A program made the translations under genes and the position numbers. A DNA stretch of 64,000 bases from assembly GCA_964605635.1 (NCBI GenBank), contig CAZSDL010000001.1, positions 3,944 through 67,943 on the forward strand. Reading direction: 5' to 3'. The DNA comes from an uncultured Woeseiaceae bacterium (GTDB lineage Bacteria > Pseudomonadota > Gammaproteobacteria > Steroidobacterales > Woeseiaceae). Shown here in pieces: positions 35,249 to 53,426 of the stretch (positions are counted from its first letter, which is position 1; each line of letters starts with the position of its first letter). The notes beneath the pieces were generated by a model. That model searched no databases. It had not been told where the DNA came from and saw only the letters and a program-made list of their open reading frames with translations.

Positions 35249-35316
35249 TAATAGTTTGTACAGGGTCATAAGGGTATGATCGGTCGTTTGCATTTTTTGC
35301 ATGGAGGTTCTTAGTC

Positions 35317-37233: not shown

Positions 37234-37310
<77 letters not shown>

Positions 37311-41061: not shown

Positions 41062-41265
41062 TCAGTCCTTCAGGACAAATGTGACTTTGAGGGTAACGCG
41101 AAACTCGTCGATTTCACCGCCCTTGATGGTTACTTTCTGCTCCGAAACCCATGCGCCCTGTACTTTGTCAACGGTCTTCGAAAACCGCTTGATCCCCTGC
41201 TTTATCGCATCTTCAAAGCTTTTCGACGACGACGACGTGATTTCCGATACCTTGGCTACGCTCAT
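41062..41265 (-). CDS. dodecin-family flavin-binding protein
   Basis: 67 aa. MSVAKVSEITSSSSKSFEDAIKQGIKRFSKTVDKVQGAWV...FRVTLKVTFVLKD matches the dodecin pattern. GGAGAA is the RBS before ATG 41265. Confidence 0.8.
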   Translation of the reverse strand: MSVAKVSEITSSSSKSFEDAIKQGIKRFSKTVDKVQGAWVSEQKVTIKGGEIDEFRVTLKVTFVLKD

Positions 41266-41393: not shown

Positions 41394-42548
41394 TCAGTAC
41401 CAGATAGAGAAAAACAGCTGCACGATATCGGCTTCAAGGGCATACAGCGGCTCTTCACCGACCAACGCGTCCGCCCTCAGGTCGCGAAAGTCGTGATAAT
41501 CCACGGTCAGTAGATCGATGGAAAAATTCACCGAGGCACGATCTATAAAACGCCAGCCACTGCTCAGGAACTCATAACTCGCCGCCAGCTTGATCGTCTG
41601 GCTGGTCAGTGGGCCCATTTCCTTGTCACGGCCACGAAAGCTGGTAGCTTCCGAGCGGGAAAACAGGTCCTGGTAGAAGTGCGCACCGGTCTGGTCGTGC
41701 CAGCGGTACTTGACGGTAAACGTCCAGTCGTCCAACGGGTGGATATAGGAGATCGCCGCGGTGTGCGACTCGATGTCCCAGGTATCCGTAAAGTACCGGT
41801 ACTCGGTCTGCACGGCGGCGCGGTATGGCAGGAAGTACCTGGCACGCAGGCCCACCGCGTTACTTGTCCGCGTGTTCGGATACAACTCCGGCTCGAAACT
41901 GTAGCCAACGGGGCTATCCGGATCCGCGTAACGCACTGAACGATAGGGGTTGTTGAGGAAACCTTCGTCAGTGATGGTTTCAACGTTGAGGGTCGTAATC
42001 AGATTGCGCGTCAAAATCTGCGTCAGGCCAATGCCGTAGTGCTGCCGGGTATTGTCGCGAGCAAACGTTTCATCGTCGGAACGCCCGACTACGTCGTCGC
42101 CGAGCGCATAGGTCAGCGTCAGGGTAGTAAGGTCACCGAACATGTCCTGGCTTACCGAGAAGCTGTAGGTGGTCGCGTCGAAATCGCTTTCGACACTGCT
42201 GGTATATGCCACACTCAAGGTGGTATTGCGATGCAAGTAGTCCATGCCCAAGGACCATTGTTTGCGTTCTTCGGTATACGGACTGGCGGTTGTAACTACA
42301 TCGATTGATGCAGAAGTGACCATGTCCACGTAGTAGTTGCCAACGAGCGAAATGTTCTGGGCAACCTGCTTTCTCACCAGCAGAGACGGGCCATCGATCG
42401 TCACGCCGCCACCGTCGTAAAGATGATAGAGGATATCGCTGCGATCGTCCGGCAGCACTCCCGCGACACTCGCGTGCGTCAATGCCAGCAGAAGGACGCT
42501 CGCAAAAACAGTACGCATCAATCCGGATTTCAAGCACAAGTTCTGCAT
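41394..42548 (-). CDS. DUF3570-like outer-membrane beta-barrel protein
   Basis: Signal peptide present (the start may be ATG 42518, MRTVFASVLLLALTHASVAG). Contains YVDMVTSASIDVVTTAS, and the beta-strand-rich body ends in an aromatic C-terminus FFSIWY. Confidence 0.65.
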   Translation of the reverse strand: MQNLCLKSGLMRTVFASVLLLALTHASVAGVLPDDRSDILYHLYDGGGVTIDGPSLLVRKQVAQNISLVGNYYVDMVTSASIDVVTTASPYTEERKQWSLGMDYLHRNTTLSVAYTSSVESDFDATTYSFSVSQDMFGDLTTLTLTYALGDDVVGRSDDETFARDNTRQHYGIGLTQILTRNLITTLNVETITDEGFLNNPYRSVRYADPDSPVGYSFEPELYPNTRTSNAVGLRARYFLPYRAAVQTEYRYFTDTWDIESHTAAISYIHPLDDWTFTVKYRWHDQTGAHFYQDLFSRSEATSFRGRDKEMGPLTSQTIKLAASYEFLSSGWRFIDRASVNFSIDLLTVDYHDFRDLRADALVGEEPLYALEADIVQLFFSIWY

Positions 42549-42572
42549 CAGGCTTTACTCAACGCCTGCAAT

Positions 42573-42809
42573 TCAATTGCAGCCGCAGCCTCCTCCGGCA
42601 CTGCCTTCTCCGCCTCTGGCTCCCTCACGGGCTTCATACACGTGATGCAGATAGGCGCTCGACACCGGGTCGCCGTCAAGAAACATAATGGGATCAGCCA
42701 GGCGATCGCGATCATAAGGCTTCACCCACGGTTCAACGCTGCTGCAAGCCGACAAAAAGCCCAGCAACGCCAGCGAAGCCAGTATCCGTGATATAGATCG
42801 TGCTTTCAT
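42573..42809 (-). CDS. DUF4266-like small lipoprotein
   Basis: Lipobox LSAC. Contains KPYDRDRLADPIMFLDGDP and ends with the family-typical GGGCGCN. GAGGAGA is the RBS before ATG 42809. Confidence 0.7.
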   Translation of the reverse strand: MKARSISRILASLALLGFLSACSSVEPWVKPYDRDRLADPIMFLDGDPVSSAYLHHVYEAREGARGGEGSAGGGCGCN

Positions 42810-42868
42810 CGCAAGTCTCCTCGATGGAATTTTGCGCAACTTCCAGCGCCGGAAGCGTGACCCCTGCC

Positions 42869-43558
42869 TCAGAAAAACACTGTCAGGCCAAGAACGCCTT
42901 CGAGATTGTGTACGGTCTTTTCCTCGCCGAGCAGGTCCGTGTCGAACAGATGATCGCGAACGTCGAGGTGCAGCGCGATGGAGTCTGTCAGGAGGAAGCG
43001 GAATCCGGCGCCGAAGTTCACTGTAAAACGGTCGTCGCCACCGAAAGTGGTTGAGCCGAGCCCGCCGGTTATATAGAGACTGGTGTTATAGGCCCGACCC
43101 GCGCCGATAAACACTTCGCCGGGAAGCAGGTTGTAACCGAGATTCAGGTTGTAATAGGTAAATTGCCGATCGCTGTCCGACAGTATTGGCGCCCCGCCGC
43201 TCAGCACCTCAAAGCTTGTCAGGCCGGCATCGGACTGCCCGACAGTGCCTTCGACAAAGAGCCCTTCGGTAATGTGATACGCAAGGCGCGCACCGTAGAC
43301 GACATCCGAGCCGAAGTCTTCGATACTGAGAATGCCGGCGAACACACCGACTTCGAAGTTCTCGGTATCAATTTTCGGTTCGCGAACCTCACGCCGTTCG
43401 ACTTGAGGATCGATCACCTGCTCCGGTGTCGGCGCCTCGACGGGCGCCGGAGTCGCTTCATCATTACCGATACCAAACAGGTTCTTTGTCGCCGCACAGC
43501 CCGCCAGGCTCAACGCCATTGGCAGTACTAAAAAAAGAACGCGAAACCGACTTTCCAT
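42869..43558 (-). CDS. outer-membrane beta-barrel lipoprotein
   Basis: Lipobox LSLAGC, then a Pro/Glu-rich linker and an approximately 8-strand barrel-like body ending ...VLGLTVFF. Confidence 0.65.
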   Translation of the reverse strand: MESRFRVLFLVLPMALSLAGCAATKNLFGIGNDEATPAPVEAPTPEQVIDPQVERREVREPKIDTENFEVGVFAGILSIEDFGSDVVYGARLAYHITEGLFVEGTVGQSDAGLTSFEVLSGGAPILSDSDRQFTYYNLNLGYNLLPGEVFIGAGRAYNTSLYITGGLGSTTFGGDDRFTVNFGAGFRFLLTDSIALHLDVRDHLFDTDLLGEEKTVHNLEGVLGLTVFF

Positions 43559-44322
43559 TCTTCTACTTCCTCGTTGTCATCACGACTCGTGAACACCACG
43601 TAACTTTTGTACTCTGCCCTCAGGATAAATCGCCTTGTCGCGTAGATGCGAAGTCCTGCACCGACGTGGCCAACCTGGTCGGTTCGATCATCGCCCTGCA
43701 CTATCGTCGATTTCGGCCGGGTATGGATCACTCCGGTGCCGAGCGTGAAAAAAGGCGAAATGCGCCATTCGGGCCATGTTTCGTGGACGACGTTAACACT
43801 GCCCATCCAGCCATTCGAAAAATTTCCCAGAATCTGTGAACCCCATGCCTCGAAAGAGACGTTCGGGTTGAGTGAGTACCTGCCATAGACCGAAATGATG
43901 TTGGCGCCACCGAAGTCTCCGGCCATTACGCCGGCCTCCCAGCGTGACTCGAGGAGATCTTCCTGACCGGCTGCGGCGAACTCGACGCTTGCGCCATCGG
44001 GCTTCAGGGTGAGTTCGAGTTGTGCGCGATCAACCCAGCCTTCGGCGCTCCCGGCGTCGCGAACGAGGAACCAGTCGGTGCGCCGTTTCATAATCTCGAC
44101 GGTCTCACCGCGGTCGACTACATGGAACTTGGGATAGCCCCGACCGGGACCCGTATGCATTTCCAGATAGGGGTCCGCCACCGCAACAGTGAGATATCGA
44201 TCCGCGGCCCCGGCAGGTCCGGCTGCAAGCATCTGGCTCAGTACAATGAGCAAGAGTGCCAGTGCTGCCGAGTTAGTTATTCGGGACGTCGAATGGATTG
44301 TTGTAATACTGGGCACCGACAT
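43528..44322 (-). CDS. SH3-domain / outer-membrane beta-barrel fusion protein
   Basis: Signal peptide, then a bacterial SH3-like segment (MHTGPGRGYPKFHVVDRGETVEIMKRRTDWFLVRDAGSAEGWVDRAQL), then a barrel-like body ending WKVGFAFFF. The start is uncertain because ATG 44322 overlaps the upstream gene by 50 nt. Confidence 0.65.
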   Translation of the reverse strand: MSVPSITTIHSTSRITNSAALALLLIVLSQMLAAGPAGAADRYLTVAVADPYLEMHTGPGRGYPKFHVVDRGETVEIMKRRTDWFLVRDAGSAEGWVDRAQLELTLKPDGASVEFAAAGQEDLLESRWEAGVMAGDFGGANIISVYGRYSLNPNVSFEAWGSQILGNFSNGWMGSVNVVHETWPEWRISPFFTLGTGVIHTRPKSTIVQGDDRTDQVGHVGAGLRIYATRRFILRAEYKSYVVFTSRDDNEEVEEWKVGFAFFF

Positions 44323-46945
44323 CCAGCCATTCCGCGATCAGGCGTTTTTCCGCAGGCGTCAGATAGCCGTCATGGCTCTCGCCCGCATCGAAACGATTAA
44401 AAAATCGACCCGACGCGTTGGCGCCGGCGACACTCATTGAAGGGTTCACCGTAACGGTGGCAAAAATCGGATCTCCGGTTTCCGGATCGGTGCCAACCTG
44501 CACCAGGACGTCCTGTAACGCGCCCATGTTGAGTTCCTGTTCGTTATCCGGGAACAGCAGCTCACGATAAGAATTTAAGTGATCCGCCTGATCGGGCGAT
44601 TGCCCGTCGGACAAATCCAGCTGCGACGCCGGCACACGCACCTGCATCTGGTCGTCGACCGGGCTGTGGCAATTGACGCAGTCATTGGTAACGGGATTAC
44701 CCATCCCGTCGAGCACCGGATTCATGTCGTCGTCCAGCACCGGTCGCGATGCCGACCATAACGGATGAATATGTGTCTCGTAATTAATGACGATGCGACA
44801 AGTCGCGGACCATTGCTGCATGCAATTGACGTTGGTCGGCGGCGCGGTCGTCAGGGCAGAGTACGCGTACGCAAAGCTCTCATCCCTCGGCCGGCCCGCA
44901 GCAACCTCATCAGTCCATACGTCGTCGTAAATGATGTCGACAGACGGATCGAGCGACACGCAGGTCGTATCGGCGCAACTGATGCGTGCTCGAACTTCGG
45001 CCATCGTTTCACCGACCTCACCGACAAAAAGTGCCGGATCGGTGTTCGGGAATTCGACGCCAGCCATCGCGGCCCCGGCCCACGCTGGTTCGAACGCATC
45101 TCCACGGCCATGGGACAGGCCGCCTTGTGCCTCGTGACAACCGTTGCATTGCAACAGTTGTCCCGGCCGGACCTGTAACCAGTTCTGATGTCGCTGTGTT
45201 ATGCGACGGCCGTCGCTGTCGAGCACACTCACGGCCAGTGCGACGTTGGCCGGCACCTTGACTATGACCGAACCATCCGGTTCGATGGGCGCATAGCCGA
45301 CAATTTCCTTCATGCCCTGCTGAGTACTGCGACCGAACGCCGTATTGTCCAGATCGACGATGTCTTCATCGGGAATCGACACCGCTTTCACAATACGCAA
45401 AAACCTGGCCGGCCTCTCATCTGCCGTGGTCTGCGCCGGATCAGCCAGCGCCGCGATATTTGCCACAGCCCCGCCGTCGAAATCATAGACACTCCGGATA
45501 CTGATCACTCCCGTGCCTTCGGCGACCAGGTCAGGGTCGGCCAGGAAATTGTCGGCGCCATCGAGTATGACGGGAGGTATGGGCCTCGGGTCGGCAGACA
45601 CTACTTCCGTGAACATGAAGCCCTCTACGGGCGGCACAATCGGCAATTGAGTGTTATCCCTCGGATCGTAGATCCAGATGCCGTAGATCGGTGGCGATTC
45701 CTCGACCTGCGGATTGGCGAGTCGCTCGTCCGTGCAAGGCACGTTAAAGATGTCCTCGACGACGCGACACTGGCTCCAGCTCACCAGCATCCTGCCGGTA
45801 CCGTCCTGAATGGGGAAGACGGAGCGGTAGCGTCCTCCACGCGAAGGTACGCCGGCCTCCGTCGAAACGTCGTTGACCGTGGCAGCTTCCTGTGCCGGCC
45901 CGGTCAGGCCAGGGTTGTCCTTGTTGGCTTGCGCATTTTCCAGGTACACCGGTACATCGATGACGGTCAGGTCGCCGCCGTCGTTCGTATCAGTGTACGG
46001 ACGAGTAAGGGCCAGTACGCGTCCGTCCTCCAGTTCGCGCGGCTGCAGGAACTGGATTGTTTCGCCATTCGTACCGGTATCGTGGCTGTTCTGGCCATAG
46101 AGCAATTCGAGATTCGACCCGTCCGGGTTCATTCGATAGAGATTCACAGCATCATTAACGCCCATGTGATCCCAGCGGCTGAACACGATCCTGCCGTCCG
46201 CCAGGACAGACGGATCGAAGTCGTGGCTCTGGTTGTATGAGATTTGCTCGATGTTCGAGCCGTCCGCATCCATGACATGCAGGACGAATGCCGGTTCGTT
46301 CCGGTCCTCGTCCATGGCGGCGAACTGCGGCTTGCCTTCATCCAGCAGCACCGCACTCGAGCGCACCTGGCGGGTCGACGAAAAAACGATGCGGCCATCC
46401 GGCAGATAGTGGGGCGCAAGATCGTGCCCGATTTCAGCGGTCAGGTCCGAGGCAATGACGCGACGCAAGGTTTCTGTTTCGAATTCGTATTCCCAGATGT
46501 TCCAGGTCGGCTGGTCCTCGTCGTCGAGGTCGAGATTCTCGATAGCCGGGCCGCGCATGGCGAACAGGAGTTTGCTGCCATCATAGGCAATCTCGACATC
46601 CCTTACGTCGCCCAGTCCGTTCGTAACGCTTTCAGTTATATTGACATCCAGTGCGCTGGGAGACGCACGGTCACGAAAGAACAGATCGGCTCCGATATTG
46701 AATGTAATCAGTTCACGCAGGTCGGATTGTTCCGTCATGCCCAGGTCATCGACCGGCAATGGTGCCCTGATGTAAGCGATCGGAAAATCGATGACGACCG
46801 GGTCCGCATCCTGCCCCGTACCGATGCTGACGCCATCACCACTTCCATCGCAGCCGGCCAACCCAAGCAAAGCGGACAGCAACAGCGCGCCCTGCACTAC
46901 CGCGTTCCGTGATCCAGCACCATTGCGTTGCGACGCCGTGTTCAT
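44273..46945 (-). CDS. large lipoprotein: PD40/TolB-like beta-propeller plus C-terminal di-CXXCH domain
   Basis: Lipobox LLGLAGC follows ATG 46945 (RBS AAGGTGG). PD40-like repeats are present (LPDGRIVFSSTR, VMDADGSNIEQISYN, LADGRIVFSRWDH, YRMNPDGSNLELLYG). The two CXXCH motifs are CNGCH and CVNCH. Confidence 0.75.
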   Translation of the reverse strand: MNTASQRNGAGSRNAVVQGALLLSALLGLAGCDGSGDGVSIGTGQDADPVVIDFPIAYIRAPLPVDDLGMTEQSDLRELITFNIGADLFFRDRASPSALDVNITESVTNGLGDVRDVEIAYDGSKLLFAMRGPAIENLDLDDEDQPTWNIWEYEFETETLRRVIASDLTAEIGHDLAPHYLPDGRIVFSSTRQVRSSAVLLDEGKPQFAAMDEDRNEPAFVLHVMDADGSNIEQISYNQSHDFDPSVLADGRIVFSRWDHMGVNDAVNLYRMNPDGSNLELLYGQNSHDTGTNGETIQFLQPRELEDGRVLALTRPYTDTNDGGDLTVIDVPVYLENAQANKDNPGLTGPAQEAATVNDVSTEAGVPSRGGRYRSVFPIQDGTGRMLVSWSQCRVVEDIFNVPCTDERLANPQVEESPPIYGIWIYDPRDNTQLPIVPPVEGFMFTEVVSADPRPIPPVILDGADNFLADPDLVAEGTGVISIRSVYDFDGGAVANIAALADPAQTTADERPARFLRIVKAVSIPDEDIVDLDNTAFGRSTQQGMKEIVGYAPIEPDGSVIVKVPANVALAVSVLDSDGRRITQRHQNWLQVRPGQLLQCNGCHEAQGGLSHGRGDAFEPAWAGAAMAGVEFPNTDPALFVGEVGETMAEVRARISCADTTCVSLDPSVDIIYDDVWTDEVAAGRPRDESFAYAYSALTTAPPTNVNCMQQWSATCRIVINYETHIHPLWSASRPVLDDDMNPVLDGMGNPVTNDCVNCHSPVDDQMQVRVPASQLDLSDGQSPDQADHLNSYRELLFPDNEQELNMGALQDVLVQVGTDPETGDPIFATVTVNPSMSVAGANASGRFFNRFDAGESHDGYLTPAEKRLIAEWLDVGAQYYNNPFDVPNN

Positions 46946-47630
46946 AAATGCCACCTTTAATACCTGATGTAGTGATTGGTACGCGCGTTTCGCACCAACT
47001 TGCGTGCGTAGCTCTATGCAATATTCAGACCATTCCCTCTTCGTAGGAAACGATCGAACGCCGCAAAGTAAAATCGCTGTCAGGCGGACTGCCATAGTGG
47101 ACGCGAAGCACCCCCTGTACCGTTAACGCGATCACAAAGATCTGCGAGAACATCTCTTCAGAATCGGTGTTTTACGGATGCTGCGACTTCCTGATCTGTA
47201 GATCGGCAACGAGCCAAATTGCACTGCGAATTATTGCGAGCAACAAAACCCGTCAGAAGTCGTGGCCCGTGTCACTGTTGCCGAAATCGCACCAACTCGG
47301 TAGCTGCCGTGTTTCCTCTGTTGTTTTGCCGCGAATCCTTGTCGGTAACAGACACTGATGTCGGTCTGCGGCGACAGGCTGCCGGGCATTGTGAATCAGC
47401 GGCTTAGAATGTCGTTTGACTTTGTCTTGTGCGGAACGAACGACAATGGCTTGACATATCCTCGCGCGGGCCTGGTCTTCGAAAAATTCTGTAATCGCCT
47501 GTTTCCTAACACGTAAATGGCAGCCAATCGCGTAACGCCGCATTTTGGCACAGCCCTTGCTATGTATTTGTCAGTTAGACAAAGACGGTGCCAAGCGGGA
47601 GTTCGAGAAAGTGTCGGTAAACAGGTGGAG

Positions 47631-47646
47631 TGTGAATGCATTCACG
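47631..47646. promoter_or_regulatory. CRP/Vfr-type palindrome
   Basis: TGTGA-ATGCAT-TCACG compared with the consensus TGTGA-N6-TCACA. Its core, GTGAATGCATTCAC, is a perfect 14-bp palindrome. It lies in the 1-kb divergent gap, about 320 nt upstream of ATG 47969. Confidence 0.3.
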
Positions 47647-47744
47647 GCCTGGATGCGACAACTTAGGCATAGTCTTTTTTGGAACGTCCGCCTGCTCGTT
47701 CGGCAATTGGTGCGCCGGTAAGACTCGGCAAAACCCTAAGGACT

Positions 47745-47850
47745 TCTGAAAAGGGCAAGGCCTCTGCCAGCAGAACCGGCGGTGGCCACGCAAAGCAACC
47801 GATCCGGGAAGTAGCCTCACGGCTACGTCTACGCGACAGCGGGGCCGCCA
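47745..47850 (+). ncRNA. candidate GEMM-I-like (cyclic-dinucleotide) riboswitch aptamer in the operon leader
   Basis: In order: GGGCAAG (47753-59); a 9-bp hairpin GGCCTCTGCC/GGCGGTGGCC (47759-87); ACGCAAAGC (47788-96); the hairpin GTAGCC-TCAC-GGCTAC (47811-26); and GACAGCGGGGCCGCC (47835-49). These parallel GGGCAAA-hairpin-GACGCAAAGCC...GUAGCGGGGUUACC of the V. cholerae Vc2 aptamer as I remember it. This has not been verified with a covariance model. Confidence 0.25.
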
Positions 47851-47968
47851 GGAGTACGTGAGTGACAGGGCTTCTTCTCCCTGCTTCGCTCTTGAAATAA
47901 GCCGGACTCCCGTGCCTGTCAGCTGTAGCTCACGATGTTGAGTCGTACTGGTCACGAGCAGGGATGTT

Positions 47969-49183
47969 ATGAAAGACAGGACGTGGAAAGTTAGTTCAGG
48001 TGCCGGAAACCGCTCATTTGTTGCGCGGCTCGCACAAGTGTTTGCCGTTGGCTTTCTGTCTGCTGCGCTCGCATTGCCTGCCGCCGCGGGTCCGAGAGAG
48101 CAGGCAAAACGCATCCATGACCGACTTGCCGGCGTCCCGCCGTCAGCCTCGGTTCTTGACGCTATGGAAGCTGACGTCGACCCGTTTCAGCCAGGCACGG
48201 CCCTGGATGCCGCTTTCACGGCGATGGACAATCCCAATTTCTACAACGTGACCCTGAAGAACTTTGCAGCGCCGTGGACAAACCGCGAGCGCAGTGTGTT
48301 CGTTCCTCTGAACGATTACATCGCAACTGTTGTCGGCATGATTCGTGACGACGTGCCGTTCAACACCCTGCTTTCTGCCGATCTCGTCTACATCGGCAAT
48401 GGCAGCCTCGGCTTGCCGCCCTACTCCAGCAATAACAACAATCACTACGCGCAGATGGAGCAACGGCAGATCGACATGATGAGCGAACTCACACCGACGG
48501 CGCAGTCGACGGTAAGCGGCCTGCCTTCAAACGCGACGGCAGGCGTGATGACGACCCGCGCAGCCGCCGAGGCGTTCTTTGTCGCCGGCACCAACCGCGC
48601 GATGTTCCGCTTCACGTTGCTGAACCACATGTGTAATGACCTCGAGCAGGTCCACGACGTCAAGCTTTCGCCGGATCGTATTCGCCAGGATGTCGCCCGC
48701 AGCCCGGGGGGTGACAGTCGCCTGTTCCTGAATAATTGCATCGGCTGCCACAACGGTATGGATCCGCTGGCGCAGGCCTTCGCGTATTACAATTTCAACG
48801 TCGACACGGGCAGCATCGAGTACACGCCGGGCCAGGTGCAGCCCAAGTACTTCAACAATGAAGACAACTTTCCGTTCGGCTTTCGTACGCCGGATGACAG
48901 CTGGGACAACTACTGGCGTACCGGGCAGAACCAGTTTCTCGGCTGGGACAGCAGTCTGCCCGGCAGTGGTGCCGGTGCGAAATCGCTTGGCGACGAACTG
49001 GGCAACAGTGCCGCGTTCGCCAGCTGCCAGGTCCGCAAAGTCTTTCAAGCTGTTTGTCTGAGACCGCCGCAAGATGCCGCCGATCGGGCCCAGGTGGATC
49101 AGATGGTCATGTCCTTCACGTCCTCCGGCTATCTCATGAAGCAGGTGTTCGCTGAAACAGCCGTCTATTGCATGGGCGACTAG
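47969..49183 (+). CDS. secreted single-CXXCH protein, DUF1588/DUF1585 (PSCyt3/PSD2)-like
   Basis: Signal peptide FVARLAQVFAVGFLSAALALPAAAG. Contains NNCIGCHNGMDPLAQAF, which is CxxCH followed by xxMDP as in the planctomycete-type DUF1588 domain. The C-terminal region is GAKSLGDELGNSAAFASCQVRKVFQAVC. Confidence 0.7.
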   Translation: MKDRTWKVSSGAGNRSFVARLAQVFAVGFLSAALALPAAAGPREQAKRIHDRLAGVPPSASVLDAMEADVDPFQPGTALDAAFTAMDNPNFYNVTLKNFAAPWTNRERSVFVPLNDYIATVVGMIRDDVPFNTLLSADLVYIGNGSLGLPPYSSNNNNHYAQMEQRQIDMMSELTPTAQSTVSGLPSNATAGVMTTRAAAEAFFVAGTNRAMFRFTLLNHMCNDLEQVHDVKLSPDRIRQDVARSPGGDSRLFLNNCIGCHNGMDPLAQAFAYYNFNVDTGSIEYTPGQVQPKYFNNEDNFPFGFRTPDDSWDNYWRTGQNQFLGWDSSLPGSGAGAKSLGDELGNSAAFASCQVRKVFQAVCLRPPQDAADRAQVDQMVMSFTSSGYLMKQVFAETAVYCMGD

Positions 49184-49187
49184 GGAG

Positions 49188-51707
49188 ATGGCGTCGATGA
49201 ATCGTACAAAAGGAACTGTTATGGCCGACCTCATCGAGAGTGGTCGCAAAGGTGTCGTACGCGCAGGACTGGCGGGCGCATTGTGCATCGCGTTGCTCGC
49301 CGGTTGCGGCGGCGGCGCGCAGACGACGGACAACCCGATAACTGGCGTGACGCCTCCGTCAACCTATTCGGGGCCGCCGCCGGCAACCGAGGACGTGCAA
49401 TCCTTCAAATTGAACGTTTGGGACAACATCCAGGCCAGCAATCGTTGCGGCGGCTGCCACAATGACTCGATCGGTCAGACGCCGATGTTTGCGCGCCACG
49501 ATGACATCAATCTTGCTTACGAGGCCGCCAACACGGTAGCCAACCTGGCGCAGCCATCGGACTCCAGACTGGTTACGAAGGTCGCCACCGGCCATAACTG
49601 CTGGCTGAGCGACAGCCAGGCTTGCGCCGACATCATGACAACGTGGATAGAAGGCTGGGCCGGGGATGCAGCCGGCGGCGGACGCCAGATCGTGCTGGAG
49701 CCACCAGTTGCAAGCGCGCCGGGATCCAGCAAGAGCTATGCAAATGCCACGGAAGCCAATTTCGCGGCCCTGGTGCATGGCCCGGTCCTGACGACCTATT
49801 GCGCCGGATGCCATACCTCGCAGTCACCGAATTCTCAACAACCGTATTTTGCGGAAGACGATGTATCCGTCGCCTACGATGCGGCGAAACCGAGGATGTC
49901 CCTCGACTCACCGGCTGATTCGCGATTCGTGGTGCGCCTCGGTAGCGAGTTCCATAACTGCTGGAACGACAGCTGCACGGCCTCCGCTGCAGAAATGCAG
50001 GCGGCCATTCAGGCATTCGCCGACACGGTTCCGCTGACGGAAATCGATCCCTTGCTGGTCAACAGTAACGCGCTGCGCATTGTCGATGGCGTCGTTGCTT
50101 CCGGCGGCAATCGTTATGAAGGCGCACAGATTGCGTTGTGGGAATTCAAAACAGGCCAGGGCGCCACGGCGTTCGATACCAGCGGCGTGGAACCGGCAAT
50201 CAATCTCACGTTGTCGGGCAACTATGAATGGTTCGGCGGCTGGGGCGTTACCATCAACGACGGCAAGGCACAGGGCTCGACGTCCGCCAGCAAGAAGCTG
50301 CATGACCTCATTCGTGCAACCGGCGAGTACTCGATCGAAGCGTGGGTGGTACCGTCGAACGTATCGCAGGAAATGGCGCGCATCGTAAGCTATTCCGCCG
50401 GCGACGACGCACGCAACTTCACCTTGCAGCAGACCTTGTACGACTACAATTTCCTGCATCGCAGCACCGAGACGAGTCTCAACGGCGATCCCGCATTATC
50501 GACCCCGTCCGCTGCAGAGGTCCTGCAGGCCGTACTGCAACACGTGGTCGCAACTTACAGCCCCGTCGACGGACGCAGAATCTATGTCAATGGCGAGCTT
50601 GTCACGCAGGCCGACCCGGTAGCCGGTGGCTCTCTGGTCGACTGGCAGGACACATTTGCTTTCGTACTCGGCAACGAAGTCTCGAGTTCGGGCCTTTGGC
50701 AGGGCACCTTCCGCCTGGTTGCGATGCATAACCGCGTCCTGACCCCCGAGCAGATCGTGCAGAATTTCGATGTTGGTGTGGGTGAGAAGTTCTACCTGTT
50801 GTTCGGCATCGAAGACATTATCAACGTGCCGACCGCCTACATCCTTTTCGAGGTTGCGCAGTTCGACAGCTACGGCTACCTGTTTACGCAGCCGCACTTC
50901 ATAACGCTCGACGCTGCACAGCAGCCTGACGGTATAGCACTGCAGGGCTTGCGCATCGGCATCAATGGAGTGGAAGCGCCGGTGGGGCAGTCCTACGCCA
51001 ATATGGACCAGACCCTCAGCTATTCGCAATTCGGTGAACTCGGTCAGCCTCTTGCCGATATCGGTGCTGTTATACCGCTGGAGAAAGGTCCGCAGGACGA
51101 TGAGTTCTTCCTGACCTTTGACTTGCTGGGTCAGCAGACCTACGTACGCACCAACGATCCGCCGCTGGTCATCACCCCGTCCGATCTGCCACCGGCGTCC
51201 CGTTTCGGGGTAAGGACCTTCGACGAAATCAATGCCACCATGGCAGCAGTGACGACTGTGGATCCTACTCAGACAAACGTGGACATGACTTACCAGAGTC
51301 TGCGGCAGTCATTGCCGACCATTGAAAGCCCCGAGGCATTTCTCGCTTCGCACCAGGTCGCGATCGCGCAGCTCGCCATCGAATACTGCAATGCGCTGAT
51401 CGACGATTCAGCATTGGCAGCCGCATACTTTCCTGGCTTTGATTTCAACCAGTCAGCCGCTGCTGCTTTTGCCGGGACCAATCGCGACCTGTTGCTCGAG
51501 CCACTGATCGACAGAATGATGGGCTTTGGCATCCAGACACAACCGGACTACGCCGATGTGCGCAACGAACTCGGCTACGTCACATCCGACGGCACGCGGC
51601 CCGACAACCTGATCGATCGCCTGTTGAGCAGCGGCGCAGCGACGCGATCGATTTCCAAGGGCGTATGCGCAGCCGTTCTCGGCAGTGCCGTCACACTCGT
51701 ACAGTAG
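49188..51707 (+). CDS. lipoprotein with two tandem CXXCH...HNCW modules and a LamG-like domain
   Basis: Lipobox LLAGC. Module 1 is CGGCHND...GHNCWLSDSQAC and module 2 is CAGCHTS...FHNCWNDSC. The LamG-like core is EYSIEAWVVPSNVSQEMARIVSYS...RRIYVNGELV. The more likely start is ATG 49197, 9 nt after GGGAG. Confidence 0.75.
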   Translation: MASMNRTKGTVMADLIESGRKGVVRAGLAGALCIALLAGCGGGAQTTDNPITGVTPPSTYSGPPPATEDVQSFKLNVWDNIQASNRCGGCHNDSIGQTPMFARHDDINLAYEAANTVANLAQPSDSRLVTKVATGHNCWLSDSQACADIMTTWIEGWAGDAAGGGRQIVLEPPVASAPGSSKSYANATEANFAALVHGPVLTTYCAGCHTSQSPNSQQPYFAEDDVSVAYDAAKPRMSLDSPADSRFVVRLGSEFHNCWNDSCTASAAEMQAAIQAFADTVPLTEIDPLLVNSNALRIVDGVVASGGNRYEGAQIALWEFKTGQGATAFDTSGVEPAINLTLSGNYEWFGGWGVTINDGKAQGSTSASKKLHDLIRATGEYSIEAWVVPSNVSQEMARIVSYSAGDDARNFTLQQTLYDYNFLHRSTETSLNGDPALSTPSAAEVLQAVLQHVVATYSPVDGRRIYVNGELVTQADPVAGGSLVDWQDTFAFVLGNEVSSSGLWQGTFRLVAMHNRVLTPEQIVQNFDVGVGEKFYLLFGIEDIINVPTAYILFEVAQFDSYGYLFTQPHFITLDAAQQPDGIALQGLRIGINGVEAPVGQSYANMDQTLSYSQFGELGQPLADIGAVIPLEKGPQDDEFFLTFDLLGQQTYVRTNDPPLVITPSDLPPASRFGVRTFDEINATMAAVTTVDPTQTNVDMTYQSLRQSLPTIESPEAFLASHQVAIAQLAIEYCNALIDDSALAAAYFPGFDFNQSAAAAFAGTNRDLLLEPLIDRMMGFGIQTQPDYADVRNELGYVTSDGTRPDNLIDRLLSSGAATRSISKGVCAAVLGSAVTLVQ

Positions 51708-51739
51708 CTCGATCAAGCAAACGGAATGAGGCAAGAGAA

Positions 51740-53365
51740 ATGGCCAGGAAAAGCAAACGTGCCCGGTTCGACTCACCGCAACGCCACGGGGAACACCCGC
51801 GGCCGGTGACCCGGCGTCAATTCGTCGCTCAGGGCTTTCTGGGCGGCTCGGCGTTCCTGGCAGGCGGCGGCGTGATGAGCCTGTTCACGAACCCGCGCGA
51901 GGCATTTGCGGAGCTGTCAGGCGACTTGCGGCCCTTGCTCAGCAATCCGTGCAACGTGGCAACGGAAGGTGCAGGCAAGATCCCGTTTATCTGTTTCGAC
52001 CTGGCGGGCGGAGCCAGCATCGCCGCTTCCAATGTCCTGGTCGGCAAAGAGGGCGGCCAACTCGATTTCCTGAGCACCGCCGGCTACCAGAAACTGGGCT
52101 TGCCCGGCGACATGGTGCCGGGTCTCAATGACCCGATTTCCGGCCTCTCCTTCACCAATACCGATTTCGGGCTGGCGTTTCACTCCGACAGCGCCTTCCT
52201 GCGCGGTATACTTCGCAGCATGGCGCCGACTCGAGCGGCCAACCTCAACGGCGCCATTATCCCGGCACGTTCGGAGAATGACACCGGCAACAATCCACAC
52301 AATCCGCTGTATGGCATTGCGACCGCGGGTGCCGACGGTTCGATCATCACGTTGGCAGGCTCCGAGAATACGGATTCAGGCGGCAACTCGATGATTCCGT
52401 CGATGATGATGAACCCGGAATTGCGGCCAACCAAGGTGGACCAGCCGCGGGATGTGACCGGCCTGGTAGATACCGGCGACCTGGTGGGCATTCTTCAGCC
52501 CGAAGAAGCGACCGCGGTCCTGGAATCCATTTACCGCATCAGCGACCGCAAGATGAGCGTTGCCGAAGCCGGCCAGACGATAAGCTCCGCGGAGGTCGTC
52601 AAGGACATGGTGCGCTGCGGCTACCTGAAATCGGCCGACATTGCCGACCGTTTCGGCGGCGTCCCGCTCGACCCCAGTGAGGACCCGATGATTGTCGGTC
52701 CGGGCGGCATATTTACTGAAGCCGAATTCAATGCCAACGATACCGATGGTCGCGAATTCCGCAAGACGGCATCTGTCATGAAACTGGTGATGAACGGTTT
52801 CGCCGGTGCCGCCTGCATCGAAATGGGCGGCTATGACTACCATGGCGGCCAGCGACGCGAAGGCGAAGTCAAGGACGAGCGCGCCGGGCGCTGCATGGGC
52901 GCTTGCCTGGAGTACGCGGCTCGCATCGGTGTACCCCTGATGCTGTACGTCTTCAGCGATGGTTCGCTGTCCAGCAACGGTGTCATCGACAACTCGCCGG
53001 AGGGTCGCGGCAAAGGTGAATGGGTCAGTGACGATTCGTCGACGGCAGCGTCATTTTTCCTGGTCTACAATCCCAACGGTCGGCCGGCGCTGCGCGGCGG
53101 GACGCCCGAGCAGCAAGCGAGGCACCAGCAGATCGGCTACTTCGACGCCAGCGGCTCGGTACAGCGCGCGTCAACGCCTGCGGCGAACAACGTCAACCTG
53201 CTCGTCAACACGGTGATTCTCAACTATATGGCGCTGCACGGTGAAGAAGGGAACTTCGCCAATCTCTTTCCGAACCACGGGCTCGGCGACACCAGTCTTC
53301 GCGACAGCATGACCGCATTCGATGCCATAGTCTCGGGCACGATCGGACCGCTGAATCCGTCGTAA
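51740..53365 (+). CDS. twin-arginine-signal protein, divergent DUF1501-like (sulfatase/phosphatase-superfamily-like)
   Basis: Tat motif TRRQFVAQGFLGGSAFLAGGG. FICFDLAGGASIAASNV and EMGGYDYHGG...LYVFSDG...GKGEWVSDDS loosely parallel the DUF1501 blocks (GG.D, GG.DTH, SEFGR, DHG). Confidence 0.65.
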   Translation: MARKSKRARFDSPQRHGEHPRPVTRRQFVAQGFLGGSAFLAGGGVMSLFTNPREAFAELSGDLRPLLSNPCNVATEGAGKIPFICFDLAGGASIAASNVLVGKEGGQLDFLSTAGYQKLGLPGDMVPGLNDPISGLSFTNTDFGLAFHSDSAFLRGILRSMAPTRAANLNGAIIPARSENDTGNNPHNPLYGIATAGADGSIITLAGSENTDSGGNSMIPSMMMNPELRPTKVDQPRDVTGLVDTGDLVGILQPEEATAVLESIYRISDRKMSVAEAGQTISSAEVVKDMVRCGYLKSADIADRFGGVPLDPSEDPMIVGPGGIFTEAEFNANDTDGREFRKTASVMKLVMNGFAGAACIEMGGYDYHGGQRREGEVKDERAGRCMGACLEYAARIGVPLMLYVFSDGSLSSNGVIDNSPEGRGKGEWVSDDSSTAASFFLVYNPNGRPALRGGTPEQQARHQQIGYFDASGSVQRASTPAANNVNLLVNTVILNYMALHGEEGNFANLFPNHGLGDTSLRDSMTAFDAIVSGTIGPLNPS

Positions 53366-53387
53366 ACGCTGTTGAGCATAAGAAGCG

Positions 53388-53426
53388 GCGGCCGGCCGGA
53401 CCAGCGTCCCGCCGGCCGCTTTTTTT
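53388..53426 (+). terminator. strong intrinsic terminator closing the 47969-53365 operon
   Basis: 9-bp GC stem GCGGCCGGC/GCCGGCCGC (53388-96 / 53411-19), 14-nt loop, then T7 (53420-26). Confidence 0.75.

What the first reader, a model, noticed from the sequence alone, without database searches (positions are those of the whole stretch)
41394..53426. Main candidate: 12-kb divergent, fully exported gene cluster built from planctomycete-type CXXCH-domain proteins, a Tat DUF1501-like protein and three OM barrels
Seen in sequence, minus-strand arm (46945 down to 41394): an 890-aa PD40-propeller lipoprotein with two CXXCH motifs, an SH3-barrel fusion, a barrel lipoprotein, a DUF4266-like lipoprotein and a DUF3570-like barrel. 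Gaps between these genes are short or they overlap.
Seen in sequence, plus-strand arm (47969 to 53365): a 404-aa secreted DUF1588/DUF1585-like protein with one CXXCH, then 4 nt later an 839-aa lipoprotein with two CXXCH...HNCW modules and a LamG-like domain, then 32 nt later a 541-aa twin-arginine DUF1501-like protein. A strong terminator closes this arm.
The arms diverge from a 1,023-bp non-coding region. All eight products carry a Sec, lipoprotein or Tat signal. The cluster contains no regulator, ATPase or inner-membrane transporter gene. There are five CXXCH motifs in three proteins, none in a classical small-cytochrome context.
Established knowledge: PSCyt/PSD-type domain proteins paired with DUF1501/DUF1552 proteins were first noted as abundant families of unknown function in Planctomycetes. 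I am not aware of a characterised function for them.
Inference: this is a periplasm/outer-membrane redox or substrate-capture machine acquired as a unit by this gammaproteobacterium.
Basis: partly seen in the sequence, partly recalled or inferred. Interest (0 to 1): 0.8.

Follow-up and report, generated by a model that had tools for sequence, protein, structure and literature searches.

The report
Conserved exported haem–flavin envelope gene cluster
A marine-sediment Woeseia bacterium carries a strictly conserved set of eight exported genes for haem, flavin-linked and metal-enzyme-like proteins, whose job is unknown but which looks like an electron-transfer machine in the cell envelope, and one half of it sits behind a c-di-GMP-sensing RNA switch.

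Summary
All eight ORFs, their gaps, the five CXXCH motifs, the export signals, the 1,023-bp divergent spacer and the terminator are as described. The labels are only partly right.

- The 890-aa protein is a full-length homologue of hydrazine synthase alpha, without beta/gamma partners.
- The "DUF1501-like" Tat protein hits no Pfam family. It has only a weak alkaline-phosphatase-like fold.
- Only the 404-aa protein shows faint PSD2/PSCyt3 similarity. Its confident model has no PDB relative.

New findings:
1. DUF3570 and DUF4266 form the published ApbE flavinylation module. Orthologous clusters add a TlpA-like thioredoxin, and some carry ApbE at either end.
2. All components co-occur in 50/50 genome loci and 15/15 metagenome loci with enough flank, across several gammaproteobacterial families.
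3. The plus arm is an independent module with no Pfam family for three of its parts. It occurs alone in Bdellovibrionota, where the LamG protein is split into two genes.
4. A c-di-GMP-I riboswitch lies about 115 nt upstream of the plus arm. It is present in only a few lineages.
5. A conserved operator-like site precedes the minus arm.

There is no compositional sign of recent transfer. The best reading is a periplasm/outer-membrane redox system with an unknown substrate. I class it as a new variant of a known kind.

The parts
41394..42548 (-). DUF3570 protein (384 aa). It has a Sec signal and is a predicted porin-like outer-membrane barrel. The N-terminal region carries tandem flavinylation-type motifs, D-M-V-T-S-A-S and D-V-V-T-T-A-S.
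   Evidence: PF12094 at 5.7e-36 and a weak Porin_4 hit. The motif is conserved in 120/120 homologues. The first motif reads SGAS in Alteromonas orthologues. DUF3570 is an experimentally shown ApbE substrate (PMC8238504).
42573..42809 (-). DUF4266 lipoprotein (78 aa) ending in GCGCN, a C-terminal CXC motif.
   Evidence: PF14086 at 9.5e-22; translation; 78-aa gene call on a 99 %-identical contig.
42869..43558 (-). Outer-membrane beta-barrel lipoprotein (229 aa) of the OMP_myx_plus type.
   Evidence: TIGR04565 at 4e-48; OMP_b-brl at 8.5e-10.
43528..44322 (-). Secreted fusion of a bacterial SH3 domain and a small beta-barrel (264 aa).
   Evidence: SH3_3 at 3.8e-8 and OMP_b-brl at 8e-4; TIGR04565 at 5e-8.
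44273..46945 (-). HzsA-like lipoprotein (890 aa). It comprises a PD40/TolB-like beta-propeller, the HZS_alpha middle domain and two c-haem motifs (CNGCH at 600, CVNCH at 756).
   Evidence: PF18582 at 6e-16. Colinear with hydrazine synthase alpha (5c2v_A) across the propeller, the middle domain, both CXXCH motifs and the C-terminal helix, E 1.7e-12. Far below the HzsA equivalog cut-off (64.6 against 800 bits).
47118..47136 (-). Conserved cis element TGTGATCGCGTTAACGGTA, followed 21 nt later by CACTAT. It lies about 175 nt upstream of the HzsA-like start codon and is a candidate activator or operator site plus promoter for the minus arm.
   Evidence: One copy per locus, always in this spacer, in 35 loci. 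Unique in the window; 0.02 copies expected by chance.
47738..47859 (+). c-di-GMP-I (GEMM-I) riboswitch aptamer in the 5' leader of the plus arm, about 115 nt before the ATG at 47969.
   Evidence: Rfam RF03167 at 30 bits, E 3e-5, below the gathering score because of loop insertions. The same position in orthologous loci passes gathering: L054 66.7/59 and L021 43.3/35. A model built here finds it in the window, L001, L021, L054, L060, L064, L065, L081 and L082. 92.8 % of cells are paired, against at most 56.5 % when the structure is slid, and 4 pairs show compensatory change.
47969..49183 (+). Secreted 404-aa mono-haem (CIGCH) all-alpha protein, a remote PSD2/PSCyt3 (DUF1585/DUF1588) relative. 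It is the first gene of the plus-arm module.
   Evidence: PSD2 is sub-threshold in 14/16 orthologues and PSCyt3 in 8/16. Some distant homologues carry PF07624. AF2 gives pLDDT 93.6, and Foldseek finds no PDB relative, best E 4.8.
49188..51707 (+). 839-aa lipoprotein. It has two CxxCH...HNCW haem modules, a LamG (Laminin_G_3) domain, a middle region and a C-terminal domain. It is a fusion of two genes that are separate in distant relatives.
   Evidence: Laminin_G_3 at 5e-20, present in 17/17 orthologues. Invariant residues C87/C90/H91/H136/C138/W139 and C205/C208/H209/H256/W259. Its parts match separate ORFs in L163-L166.
51740..53365 (+). 541-aa twin-arginine-exported protein from a family with no Pfam or NCBIfam model. 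It probably has an alkaline-phosphatase-superfamily core with invariant D87, D181, D366-x-H368 and D407.
   Evidence: No Pfam hit in it or in 59 relatives. No PDB sequence hit. 1,309 50 %-identity clusters at E<=1e-3. AF2 gives pLDDT 85.9. All of the top 50 Foldseek PDB hits are sulfatases, alkaline phosphatases, iPGM, LtaS or ENPP, but weakly so, with best E 1.1e-3 and TM 0.2-0.3.
53387..53426 (+). Intrinsic terminator, a GC-rich hairpin plus U7, that closes the plus arm.
   Evidence: Sequence. Fold of -42.9 kcal/mol, z -2.9.

Best explanation
The region encodes one conserved, wholly extracytoplasmic redox system made of two joined modules.

Module A (minus arm) is a variant of the published ApbE-linked DUF3570/DUF4266/thioredoxin system. 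In that system reducing equivalents are thought to pass from a periplasmic TlpA-like thioredoxin to the CXC lipoprotein DUF4266. They then reach FMN bound covalently to the N-terminal motifs of the DUF3570 outer-membrane barrel. Here the relay is extended by two further small barrels and a dihaem HzsA-like propeller cytochrome.

Module B (plus arm) is an independent, widespread module whose parts mostly lack any Pfam family. It has a mono-haem protein of unsolved fold, bis-His-type haem modules fused here to a LamG binding domain, and a Tat-exported enzyme that is probably alkaline-phosphatase-like. I infer that Module B binds and transforms a still unknown periplasmic or surface substrate, using electrons exchanged with Module A.

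In this Woeseia lineage ApbE and the thioredoxin are not encoded in the cluster, so they would have to be supplied in trans. Transcription of Module B also passes through a c-di-GMP-I riboswitch, which ties its expression to the sessile/biofilm signalling state.

Shown here: gene content, homologies, synteny, and the riboswitch sequence and structure. Inferred: haem and flavin loading, the direction of electron flow, coupling between the two modules, and the substrate.
For: - The gene set is strictly co-conserved and divergently arranged in 50/50 genome loci (Woeseiaceae, Alteromonas, Paraglaciecola, Aliiglaciecola, Kangiellaceae, Pseudomonadales, Chromatiaceae, Lentisalinibacter) and 15/15 metagenome loci with at least 9 kb of flank.
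- DUF3570 and DUF4266 pass their HMM thresholds.
- DUF3570 flavinylation by ApbE has been shown experimentally, and the ApbE/DUF3570/thioredoxin/DUF4266 cluster has been described (PMC8238504).
- A TlpA-like thioredoxin with a WCxPC motif lies between the barrel gene and DUF4266 in non-Woeseiaceae orthologous clusters.
- ApbE (PF02424, about 1e-82) abuts the DUF3570 end in L099-101, L111, L116, L117, L127 and L139, and abuts the Tat-protein end in Alteromonas L073, L076 and L080. The nqr operon abuts DUF3570 in L084, L085 and L087.
- A distant copy of Module B lies next to ApbE, a NapH-like polyferredoxin and an FNR-like reductase.
- Five CXXCH motifs and the second-His positions are conserved.
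- The HzsA-like protein is colinear with HZS-alpha, including both haem sites.
- The Tat signal and invariant D/D-x-H/D residues fit a metal-dependent enzyme, and every top fold hit is an alkaline-phosphatase-superfamily member.
Against: - No component has been tested in this organism. There is no evidence here for haem attachment, flavinylation or electron transfer.
- The window's DUF3570 motifs read TSAS and TTAS rather than the published [S/T]GA[S/T].
- ApbE and TlpA are absent from the 64-kb window (tblastn).
- Module B occurs without Module A in Bdellovibrionota and other bacteria, so the two arms need not act together.
- The alkaline-phosphatase-like fold assignment is weak (best E 1.1e-3, TM 0.2-0.3).
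- ApbE adjacency is seen in a minority of loci.
- The riboswitch is found in only about 4 lineages, in 9 of the 170 sequences searched, and is absent from Woeseia oceani XK5. c-di-GMP control is therefore not a general property of the system.
- The substrate is unknown.
Confidence: 0.45

Rival explanations
1. The two arms are functionally separate operons that are merely neighbours. The minus arm would be a flavin/thiol/haem envelope redox module. The plus arm would be an unrelated substrate-processing module with its own regulation.
For: - The plus-arm module occurs alone, with a different gene split, in Bdellovibrionota, Oligoflexales and other contigs that have no HzsA-like or DUF3570 genes nearby.
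- The arms are divergent, with separate control elements: a riboswitch on the plus arm only, and the TGTGATCGCGTTAACGGTA site on the minus arm only.
- DUF3570/DUF4266 clusters exist elsewhere without these partners (PMC8238504).
Against: - 65 of 65 loci with enough flank keep both arms head to head across several families, at 45-97 % protein identity.
- ApbE sits at the plus-arm end in Alteromonas, although its known substrate is at the far end of the minus arm.
- A distant copy of the plus-arm module also lies near ApbE and a NapH-like protein.
Confidence: 0.2
2. The system is a nutrient-scavenging device. The LamG lipoprotein would capture a glycan or an organic ester at the envelope. The Tat-exported alkaline-phosphatase-superfamily enzyme would hydrolyse a phospho-, sulfo- or phosphono-ester. 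The haem and flavin parts would be accessory or regulatory.
For: - Fold hits are to sulfatases, alkaline phosphatases, ENPP and LtaS.
- The protein has an invariant Asp/His set, and a near-invariant Ser151 at the N-terminus of a helix could be the nucleophile.
- Laminin_G_3 acts as a carbohydrate-binding module in PSCyt proteins of Verrucomicrobia that neighbour sulfatases (PMC5615132).
- From general knowledge, Tat export is typical of PhoD- and PhoX-type phosphatases.
Against: - The fold match is weak, and no sulfatase, phosphatase or DUF1501 HMM hits the protein.
- Hydrolysis gives no reason for five conserved haem sites, a flavinylation substrate, a thioredoxin and ApbE to be co-conserved with it.
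- No transporter or TonB-dependent receptor lies in or next to the cluster.
Confidence: 0.15
3. The system performs periplasmic nitrogen-oxide or hydroxylamine chemistry. The HzsA-like dihaem propeller protein would be the catalytic centre and the other proteins would feed it electrons.
For: The 890-aa protein is a colinear homologue of hydrazine synthase alpha, including the middle domain that holds the catalytic haem alphaI. From general knowledge, Woeseiaceae carry truncated denitrification pathways.
Against: - There are no HzsB or HzsC partners.
- The protein scores 64.6 bits against the 800-bit equivalog cut-off.
- The residue after the first CXXCH differs from the anammox enzyme.
- No HzsA homologue outside anammox bacteria has an experimentally confirmed function (PMC12758564).
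- The carriers are mostly aerobic heterotrophs.
Confidence: 0.08
4. This is the first reader's reading: a planctomycete PSCyt/PSD plus DUF1501 system that the gammaproteobacterium acquired horizontally as one unit.
For: The 404-aa protein has faint PSD2/PSCyt3 similarity and the CxxCH-x3-DP motif. It is paired with a Tat-signal protein, as PSCyt/PSD genes are in Planctomycetes and Verrucomicrobia (PMC5615132).
Against: - The DUF1501, DUF1552 and PSCyt1/2 HMMs do not hit.
- GC and GC3 are indistinguishable from housekeeping genes.
- The cluster is present in every sufficiently long Woeseiaceae locus and in several other gammaproteobacterial families.
- No mobile-element genes flank it.
Confidence: 0.05

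Closest known systems
ApbE-associated DUF3570 / DUF4266 / thioredoxin-like (with or without DsbD) gene clusters (Meheust et al. 2021, eLife, PMC8238504)
   Same: DUF3570 and DUF4266 are adjacent, in the same order and on the same strand. DUF4266 ends in a CXC motif. DUF3570 carries two tandem flavinylation-type motifs. Orthologous clusters contain the TlpA-like thioredoxin, and some contain ApbE.
   Different: This window has no ApbE, thioredoxin or DsbD. The motif glycine is replaced (TSAS and TTAS). The module is always joined to an HzsA-like dihaem propeller protein, two extra small barrels and a divergent three-gene haem/LamG/Tat module. None of these partners turned up when the paper's main text was searched for hydrazine, HZS, PD40, Laminin and beta-barrel.
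Planctomycete/Verrucomicrobia PSCyt-PSD proteins paired with DUF1501 or DUF1552 Tat proteins
   Same: A secreted CXXCH protein with the CxxCH-x3-DP motif and a DUF1585-like C-terminus lies next to a twin-arginine protein of unknown function. LamG (pfam13385) fusions are also seen in that group. The function is unknown in both cases.
   Different: All PSCyt/PSD hits are below Pfam thresholds. The Tat partner hits neither DUF1501 nor any other family. The module has four conserved parts, not two. It is found in Gammaproteobacteria and Bdellovibrionota.
Anammox hydrazine synthase alpha subunit (PDB 5c2v chain A)
   Same: The architecture is the same: a beta-propeller, the HZS_alpha middle domain, two CXXCH haem sites and a C-terminal helix, all colinear.
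   Different: There are no beta/gamma subunits. Similarity is low (E 1.7e-12, 64.6 bits against an 800-bit equivalog cut-off). The protein is a lipoprotein in aerobic heterotrophs, so it is not a hydrazine synthase.
GEMM-I riboswitches (Vc2 c-di-GMP-I; Geobacter GEMM-Ib upstream of cytochrome and pilus genes)
   Same: The two-helix aptamer is the same, with GGGCAA...ACGCAAAGC...GCC and a closing P1, in the 5' leader of genes for exported and haem proteins.
   Different: In the window the aptamer has long loop insertions and scores below the Rfam gathering threshold. It keeps a G at the position that is A in cGAMP-specific variants, so c-di-GMP is the expected ligand (inference). It is present in only a few lineages that carry the cluster.
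Porin-cytochrome conduits such as MtrCAB (analogy only)
   Same: Outer-membrane barrels are encoded together with periplasmic or lipoprotein c-haem proteins, and flavin is involved.
   Different: There is no homology. The proteins here carry one or two haems, not ten. No evidence here shows that electrons cross the outer membrane.

Membership tests
Pfam DUF1501 (PF07394) | Match to the family HMM at or above the gathering score | tested here: not met
   No Pfam hit at E<=1 for the 541-aa protein or for any of 60 family members down to 29 % identity. No NCBIfam hit.
Pfam DUF1501 (PF07394) | Twin-arginine signal and an alkaline-phosphatase-clan fold | tested here: inconclusive
   The TRRQFV Tat motif is present. 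All of the top 50 Foldseek PDB hits are alkaline-phosphatase-superfamily members, but the best E is 1.1e-3 and TM is 0.2-0.3. No DUF1501 sequence or profile was available for a direct profile-profile comparison.
PSCyt3/PSD2 (DUF1588/DUF1585) | HMM match at or above the gathering score | tested here: not met
   For the window protein, PSD2 scores 16.8 bits (cut-off 25.8) and PSCyt3 scores 12.7 bits (cut-off 27). Sub-threshold PSD2 hits occur in 14/16 orthologues. A minority of distant homologues carry a precomputed PF07624 hit. The protein is a remote relative, not a member.
PSCyt3/PSD2 (DUF1588/DUF1585) | CxxCH-x3-DP-x-G haem motif and pairing with a Tat-signal partner gene | tested here: met
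   CIGCHNGMDPLAQ is invariant in its core. A Tat-protein gene lies in the same operon in all loci. That the motif defines the family is recalled from memory.
ApbE/DUF3570 flavinylation-associated system (PMC8238504) | DUF3570 and DUF4266 (C-terminal CXC) genes adjacent | tested here: met
   PF12094 at 124.7 bits and PF14086 at 78.1 bits, 24 nt apart. DUF4266 ends in GCGCN.
ApbE/DUF3570 flavinylation-associated system (PMC8238504) | Two [S/T]GA[S/T] flavinylation motifs in DUF3570 | tested here: inconclusive
   The window has TSAS and TTAS at the aligned positions. Orthologues in Alteromonas and others have SGAS at the first site. The SSAS variant co-occurs with an adjacent ApbE in L099-101 and L116.
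ApbE/DUF3570 flavinylation-associated system (PMC8238504) | ApbE and a thioredoxin-like gene in the cluster | tested here: not met
   tblastn finds neither in the 64-kb window. Both are present in orthologous clusters of other lineages.
ApbE/DUF3570 flavinylation-associated system (PMC8238504) | Covalent FMN on DUF3570 | not testable with these tools
   Needs co-expression with ApbE, then UV-fluorescent SDS-PAGE or mass spectrometry.
c-di-GMP-I riboswitch (Rfam RF01051/RF03167, clan CL00126) | Covariance-model score at or above the gathering score | tested here: not met
   The window scores 30 bits against 59, E 3e-5. The orthologous position passes in L054 (66.7/59) and L021 (43.3/35).
c-di-GMP-I riboswitch (Rfam RF01051/RF03167, clan CL00126) | Conserved three-helix architecture supported by covariation, in a 5' leader on the gene's strand | tested here: met
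   92.8 % of cells are paired, against at most 56.5 % for slid controls. Four pairs show compensatory change. The aptamer lies 95-157 nt upstream of the first plus-arm gene in every case.
c-di-GMP-I riboswitch (Rfam RF01051/RF03167, clan CL00126) | Binds c-di-GMP | not testable with these tools
   By inspection, the G before the GC pair, the A in ACGCAAAGC and the C before the 3' strand of P1 are retained. Which nucleotides contact the ligand is taken from general knowledge of Vc2.
Hydrazine synthase alpha (NF052339 equivalog) | Equivalog-level score and HzsB/HzsC partners | tested here: not met
   64.6 bits against 800. No beta/gamma homologue in the cluster. The HZS_alpha middle domain itself is present at 59.2 bits against a 26.6-bit cut-off.

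The most novel reading that the evidence does not exclude
The cluster encodes a previously unrecognised, roughly nine-component envelope redox enzyme system of marine Gammaproteobacteria. A thiol-to-flavin relay (DsbD/TlpA, then DUF4266, then ApbE-flavinylated DUF3570) would drive an HZS-alpha-like dihaem catalyst. It would also drive a four-part haem/metalloenzyme module with no described family and with at least one fold absent from the PDB. The system would carry out a new extracytoplasmic transformation, and in some lineages it would be switched by c-di-GMP. If so, it would give a first function to several large 'unknown' families: HzsA-like proteins outside anammox bacteria, DUF3570/DUF4266, PSD-like haem proteins and their Tat partners.
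Probability: 0.2. Interest if true: 0.85.

Novelty: new variant of a known kind. Interest (0 to 1): 0.62.

Why it matters
Several of the protein families here are abundant and have no known function: non-anammox HzsA-like cytochromes, DUF3570/DUF4266, PSCyt/PSD-like haem proteins with Tat partners, and the Pfam-less Tat family with about 1,300 clusters at 50 % identity. This cluster places them in one strictly co-conserved unit.

The unit occurs in Woeseiaceae, which general knowledge ranks among the most abundant bacteria of marine sediments. It also occurs in cultivable strains of Alteromonas, Aliiglaciecola and Lentisalinibacter and in Woeseia oceani XK5, where experiments are feasible.

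The ApbE link, the c-di-GMP riboswitch and the conserved operator-like site give concrete handles. They suggest which cofactor to look for, which signal to vary and which promoter to probe. The question of what these families do therefore becomes directly testable.

Tried and rejected
- **DUF1501 label.** Pfam at E<=1 and NCBIfam were run on the Tat protein and 59 relatives. PDB sequence and profile searches were also run. All were negative. A direct profile-profile test against DUF1501 or DUF1552 was not possible, because no sequences of those families were available.
- **Fold of the 404-aa protein.** A Foldseek PDB search of the confident model found nothing. The function cannot be read from the fold.
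- **Cross-homology between components.** HMMs of each family were run against all cluster proteins. They share only the bare CXXCH motif.
- **Small ORFs in the spacer.** These are the 179-, 96- and 81-aa ORFs and an 82-aa gene called on a related contig. They have no Pfam hits and are not conserved, and the 179-aa ORF overlaps the riboswitch on the opposite strand. I treated them as spurious.
- **Promoter and terminator scans of the spacer.** The sigma-70 and terminator consensus scans found nothing. MFE folding of the whole leader is no better than shuffled sequence, z = 0.21. A hairpin (CAGGG...CCCUG followed by CUUCGCUCUU) downstream of the aptamer could be a weak terminator, but this was not established.
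- **Riboswitch as a general feature.** It is present in only 9 of the 170 sequences searched, about 4 lineages.
- **Dodecin, MOSC, LemA and DUF2207 downstream of DUF3570.** They are not conserved with the cluster outside the window's own lineage.
- **Horizontal transfer.** There is no GC or GC3 deviation.
- **Literature.** Searches for DUF3570/DUF4266, DUF1501/PSCyt, HzsA-like proteins, and hydrazine synthase with these genera found no functional study of an orthologous cluster.
- **RNAalifold on five aptamers.** It gave a non-canonical fold. The canonical GEMM-I pairing from the Rfam alignment was used instead and checked by pair counts.

Full report
**1. Observation**

Independent gene calls on a 99 %-identical metagenome contig give the same products: 384, 78, 229, 264 and 890 aa on one strand, and 404, 828/839 and 541 aa on the other.

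The gaps are 24, 59, -31 and -50 nt on the minus arm and 4 and 32 nt on the plus arm. The spacer is 1,023 nt. There are five CXXCH motifs. Four lipoboxes, three Sec signals and one twin-arginine motif are visible in the translations. A GC-rich hairpin followed by U7 at 53387-53426 closes the plus arm.

**2. Organism and composition**

The closest relatives of every protein are from Woeseia and Woeseiaceae. L001, a Woeseia sp. MAG, is 91-96 % identical in protein sequence across the cluster.

GC (0.55-0.62) and GC3 (0.56-0.76) of the cluster genes overlap those of dnaG, rpoD, fadB and other window genes. The flanks are housekeeping genes: tRNA-Met, a rhomboid protease, rpoD-dnaG-rpsU and fadB. 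Nothing suggests recent acquisition.

**3. Minus arm**

- DUF3570 (124.7 bits) and DUF4266 (78.1 bits, ending in GCGCN) are clear.
- The 229-aa lipoprotein is an OMP_myx_plus barrel (TIGR04565, 163.5 bits).
- The 264-aa protein is a fusion of an SH3 domain and a small barrel.
- The 890-aa lipoprotein is not a PSCyt protein. It carries the HZS_alpha middle domain (PF18582, 59.2 bits). A profile of 17 orthologues aligns colinearly with hydrazine synthase alpha (5c2v_A). The alignment covers propeller blades, the middle domain, both CXXCH sites and the C-terminal helix (E 1.7e-12).
- That protein is far below the HzsA equivalog cut-off (64.6 against 800 bits) and has no beta/gamma partners, so it is not a hydrazine synthase. 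No HzsA homologue outside anammox bacteria has a known function (PMC12758564).

**4. Link to flavinylation**

Meheust et al. (PMC8238504) showed that ApbE flavinylates a DUF3570 protein at two [S/T]GA[S/T] motifs. They also described clusters of ApbE, DUF3570, a thioredoxin-like protein and DUF4266, with or without DsbD.

In the window the aligned motifs read D-M-V-T-S-A-S and D-V-V-T-T-A-S. This pattern is conserved in 120/120 close homologues. In orthologues from Alteromonas and some other loci the first motif is the canonical SGAS.

Outside Woeseiaceae, orthologous clusters carry a secreted TlpA-like thioredoxin (WCxPC; AhpC-TSA/Redoxin, about 1e-28) between the barrel gene and DUF4266.

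ApbE (PF02424, about 1e-82) lies directly beside DUF3570 in L099-101, L111, L116, L117, L127 and L139. In three Alteromonas loci it lies directly beside the Tat-protein gene, at the opposite end of the cluster. In three Pseudomonadales-type loci the nqr operon follows DUF3570. The window itself has neither ApbE nor TlpA.

The minus arm is therefore a variant of a described, functionally unsolved flavinylation-associated system. A search of that paper's main text for hydrazine, HZS, PD40, Laminin and beta-barrel found none of the extra partners.

**5. Plus arm**

*The 541-aa Tat protein*
- It has no Pfam, NCBIfam or PDB sequence relative. Neither do 59 diverse family members.
- The family is large: 1,309 clusters at 50 % identity with E<=1e-3. 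It is annotated 'hypothetical', or wrongly as 'GspF'.
- Its AF2 model is good (pLDDT 85.9). All 50 best Foldseek PDB hits are alkaline-phosphatase-superfamily enzymes, but the matches are weak (best E 1.1e-3, TM 0.2-0.3).
- D87 at the end of the first strand, D181, D366-x-H368 and D407 are invariant. S151 and H148 are near-invariant. This fits a metal site of that superfamily (my inference).
- 'DUF1501-like' is therefore at best a superfamily-level resemblance.

*The 404-aa protein*
- It gives sub-threshold PSD2 hits in 14/16 orthologues and PSCyt3 hits in 8/16. Some distant homologues reach PF07624.
- Its AF2 model is very confident (pLDDT 93.6, pTM 0.89), yet Foldseek finds no PDB relative (best E 4.8).
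- Across 73 diverse homologues the CxxCH motif is invariant, but no second His or Met is. K293 is invariant and H159 is at least 90 % conserved. This hints at an open or unusual haem site (my inference).

*The 839-aa lipoprotein*
- It has two invariant CxxCH...H-N-C-W modules, which are candidate bis-His haems.
- It has a robust Laminin_G_3 domain and a C-terminal domain.

**6. The plus arm is an independent, wider module**

Distant Tat-protein homologues (31-35 % identity) lie in a four-gene operon. Profile HMMs built here show that the operon consists of:
- a 404-aa-type protein;
- a 215-256-aa lipoprotein that corresponds to the C-terminal domain of the 839-aa protein;
- the Tat protein;
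- a 395-1,375-aa protein that carries the CxxCH...HNCW module or modules.

This was seen in a Bdellovibrionota MAG and other contigs. None of these genes has a precomputed Pfam hit on those contigs, and no HzsA-like or DUF3570 gene is nearby. The 839-aa protein is therefore a gene fusion with a LamG insertion.

One such distant locus sits 1-6 kb from ApbE, a NapH-like polyferredoxin and an FNR-like reductase, and next to tatA. This is a second, independent association of the module with flavinylation machinery.

**7. Co-conservation**

A scan of species-representative genomes seeded on the Tat protein found at least 591 relatives. All 50 loci among the best 80 that have at least 9 kb upstream contain every other component in the same divergent order. 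These loci come from Woeseiaceae, Lentisalinibacter, Alteromonas, Paraglaciecola, Aliiglaciecola, Kangiellaceae, Pseudomonadales and Chromatiaceae.

A metagenome scan seeded on DUF3570 gave the reciprocal result. All 15 loci with at least 9 kb of flank have the full set, and all 23 with at least 5 kb have the HzsA-like gene.

Within this gammaproteobacterial type the two arms form a fixed unit.

**8. Regulation**

*Riboswitch.* An Rfam scan of the spacer finds a GEMM-I clan match at 47745-47853 on the plus strand (RF03167, 30 bits, E 3e-5). It is below the gathering score because of 14- and roughly 30-nt loop insertions. At the same position, L054 (Lentisalinibacter salinarum) scores 66.7 bits against a gathering score of 59. 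L021 scores 43.3 against 35 for RF01051.

A covariance model built from five copies finds the element in nine sequences: the window, L001, L021, L054, L060, L064, L065, L081 and L082. It finds it nowhere else in 170 sequences, and not in W. oceani XK5. The canonical pairing is kept in 92.8 % of cells, against at most 56.5 % for slid controls. Four pairs show compensatory change.

The nucleotides equivalent to G20, A47 and C92 of Vc2 are retained, by inspection and general knowledge. c-di-GMP rather than cGAMP is therefore the expected ligand. The expression platform is not resolved.

*Cis element.* A 19-nt element, TGTGATCGCGTTAACGGTA, lies at 47118-47136 on the minus strand and is followed 21 nt later by CACTAT. 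It occurs exactly once, always upstream of the HzsA-like gene, in 35 loci. The geometry would fit a class-II activator site centred near -41.5 (my inference).

**9. Mechanism**

My best reading, at a confidence of about 0.45, is an extracytoplasmic redox system.

- Module A is a thiol-to-flavin relay at the outer membrane: TlpA, then the DUF4266 CXC lipoprotein, then FMN on DUF3570. ApbE and TlpA would act in trans in Woeseia. The relay is extended by small barrels and a dihaem HzsA-like protein.
- Module B binds an unknown substrate through its LamG domain. It transforms that substrate with its haem sites and the Tat-exported metalloenzyme.
- Electron exchange between the two modules is inferred only from their strict co-conservation and from ApbE lying at either end of the cluster.

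The rivals are two independent neighbouring operons (0.2), ester or glycan scavenging (0.15), N-oxide or hydroxylamine chemistry (0.08), and a horizontally acquired planctomycete system (0.05).

**10. Novelty**

The parts belong to known but functionally unsolved families. One sub-module has been described and partly validated biochemically. The following were not found in the literature searched:
- the fixed combination with an HzsA-like cytochrome and the four-part module that lacks Pfam families;
- the gene-fusion history of the 839-aa protein;
- the fold of the 404-aa protein, which has no PDB relative;
- the c-di-GMP riboswitch;
- the conserved operator-like site.

I class the cluster as a new variant of a known kind. 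It is of moderately high interest because cultivable carriers make these families experimentally approachable.

Noticed in passing
window 41062-41265 (minus strand): A 67-aa dodecin gene (PF07311, 7e-22), encoding a flavin-binding/storage protein, lies 129 nt downstream of DUF3570 on the same strand. It is followed by genes for MOSC, LemA and DUF2207 proteins. The pairing with a flavinylation substrate is suggestive, but it is seen only in the window's own lineage and not in other loci.
   Followed up: partly
window 47118-47136 (minus strand) and 35 loci: A conserved 19-nt element, TGTGATCGCGTTAACGGTA, contains the palindrome CGTTAACG and is followed by a -10-like CACTAT. It occurs once per locus, upstream of the HzsA-like gene. 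The regulator is unknown.
   Followed up: partly
window 53451-54881 (plus strand): A 476-aa protein with a Trm112-like zinc ribbon, a CARME-like SAM methyltransferase domain and a PqqD-like C-terminus lies just after the terminator. It has its own promoter-like site (TTTGCA-17-CATAAT). It is co-located downstream of the Tat-protein gene in most Woeseiaceae and Pseudomonadales loci (36-97 % identity), but not in Alteromonas. In W. oceani XK5 two other genes lie between it and the Tat-protein gene.
   Followed up: partly
L073, L076, L080 (Alteromonas), about 50-100 nt beyond the Tat-protein gene, convergent: ApbE sits at the plus-arm end of the cluster in Alteromonas. In other lineages it sits at the DUF3570 end. 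This is an unusual either-end association.
   Followed up: yes
L084, L085, L087, immediately after DUF3570: The nqrABCDE genes for Na+-NQR, whose subunits are themselves ApbE substrates, follow the cluster in three Pseudomonadales-type loci.
   Followed up: partly
Protein P0046 (Woeseia oceani) and P0054, P0084: Public records name the Tat-exported 541-aa protein 'general secretion pathway protein GspF'. Nothing here supports that name, so it looks like a propagated misannotation.
   Followed up: no
window 47428-47467: A second short stretch of the spacer, containing CTTGACAT, is conserved in L004 and L010. It could belong to the plus-arm promoter, but no consensus promoter was found there.
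   Followed up: no
window 37234-37310 and 33479-37152: tRNA-Met (CAT) and the rpsU-dnaG-rpoD macromolecular-synthesis operon lie about 4-8 kb from the cluster. The cluster therefore sits in a core-genome neighbourhood.
   Followed up: no
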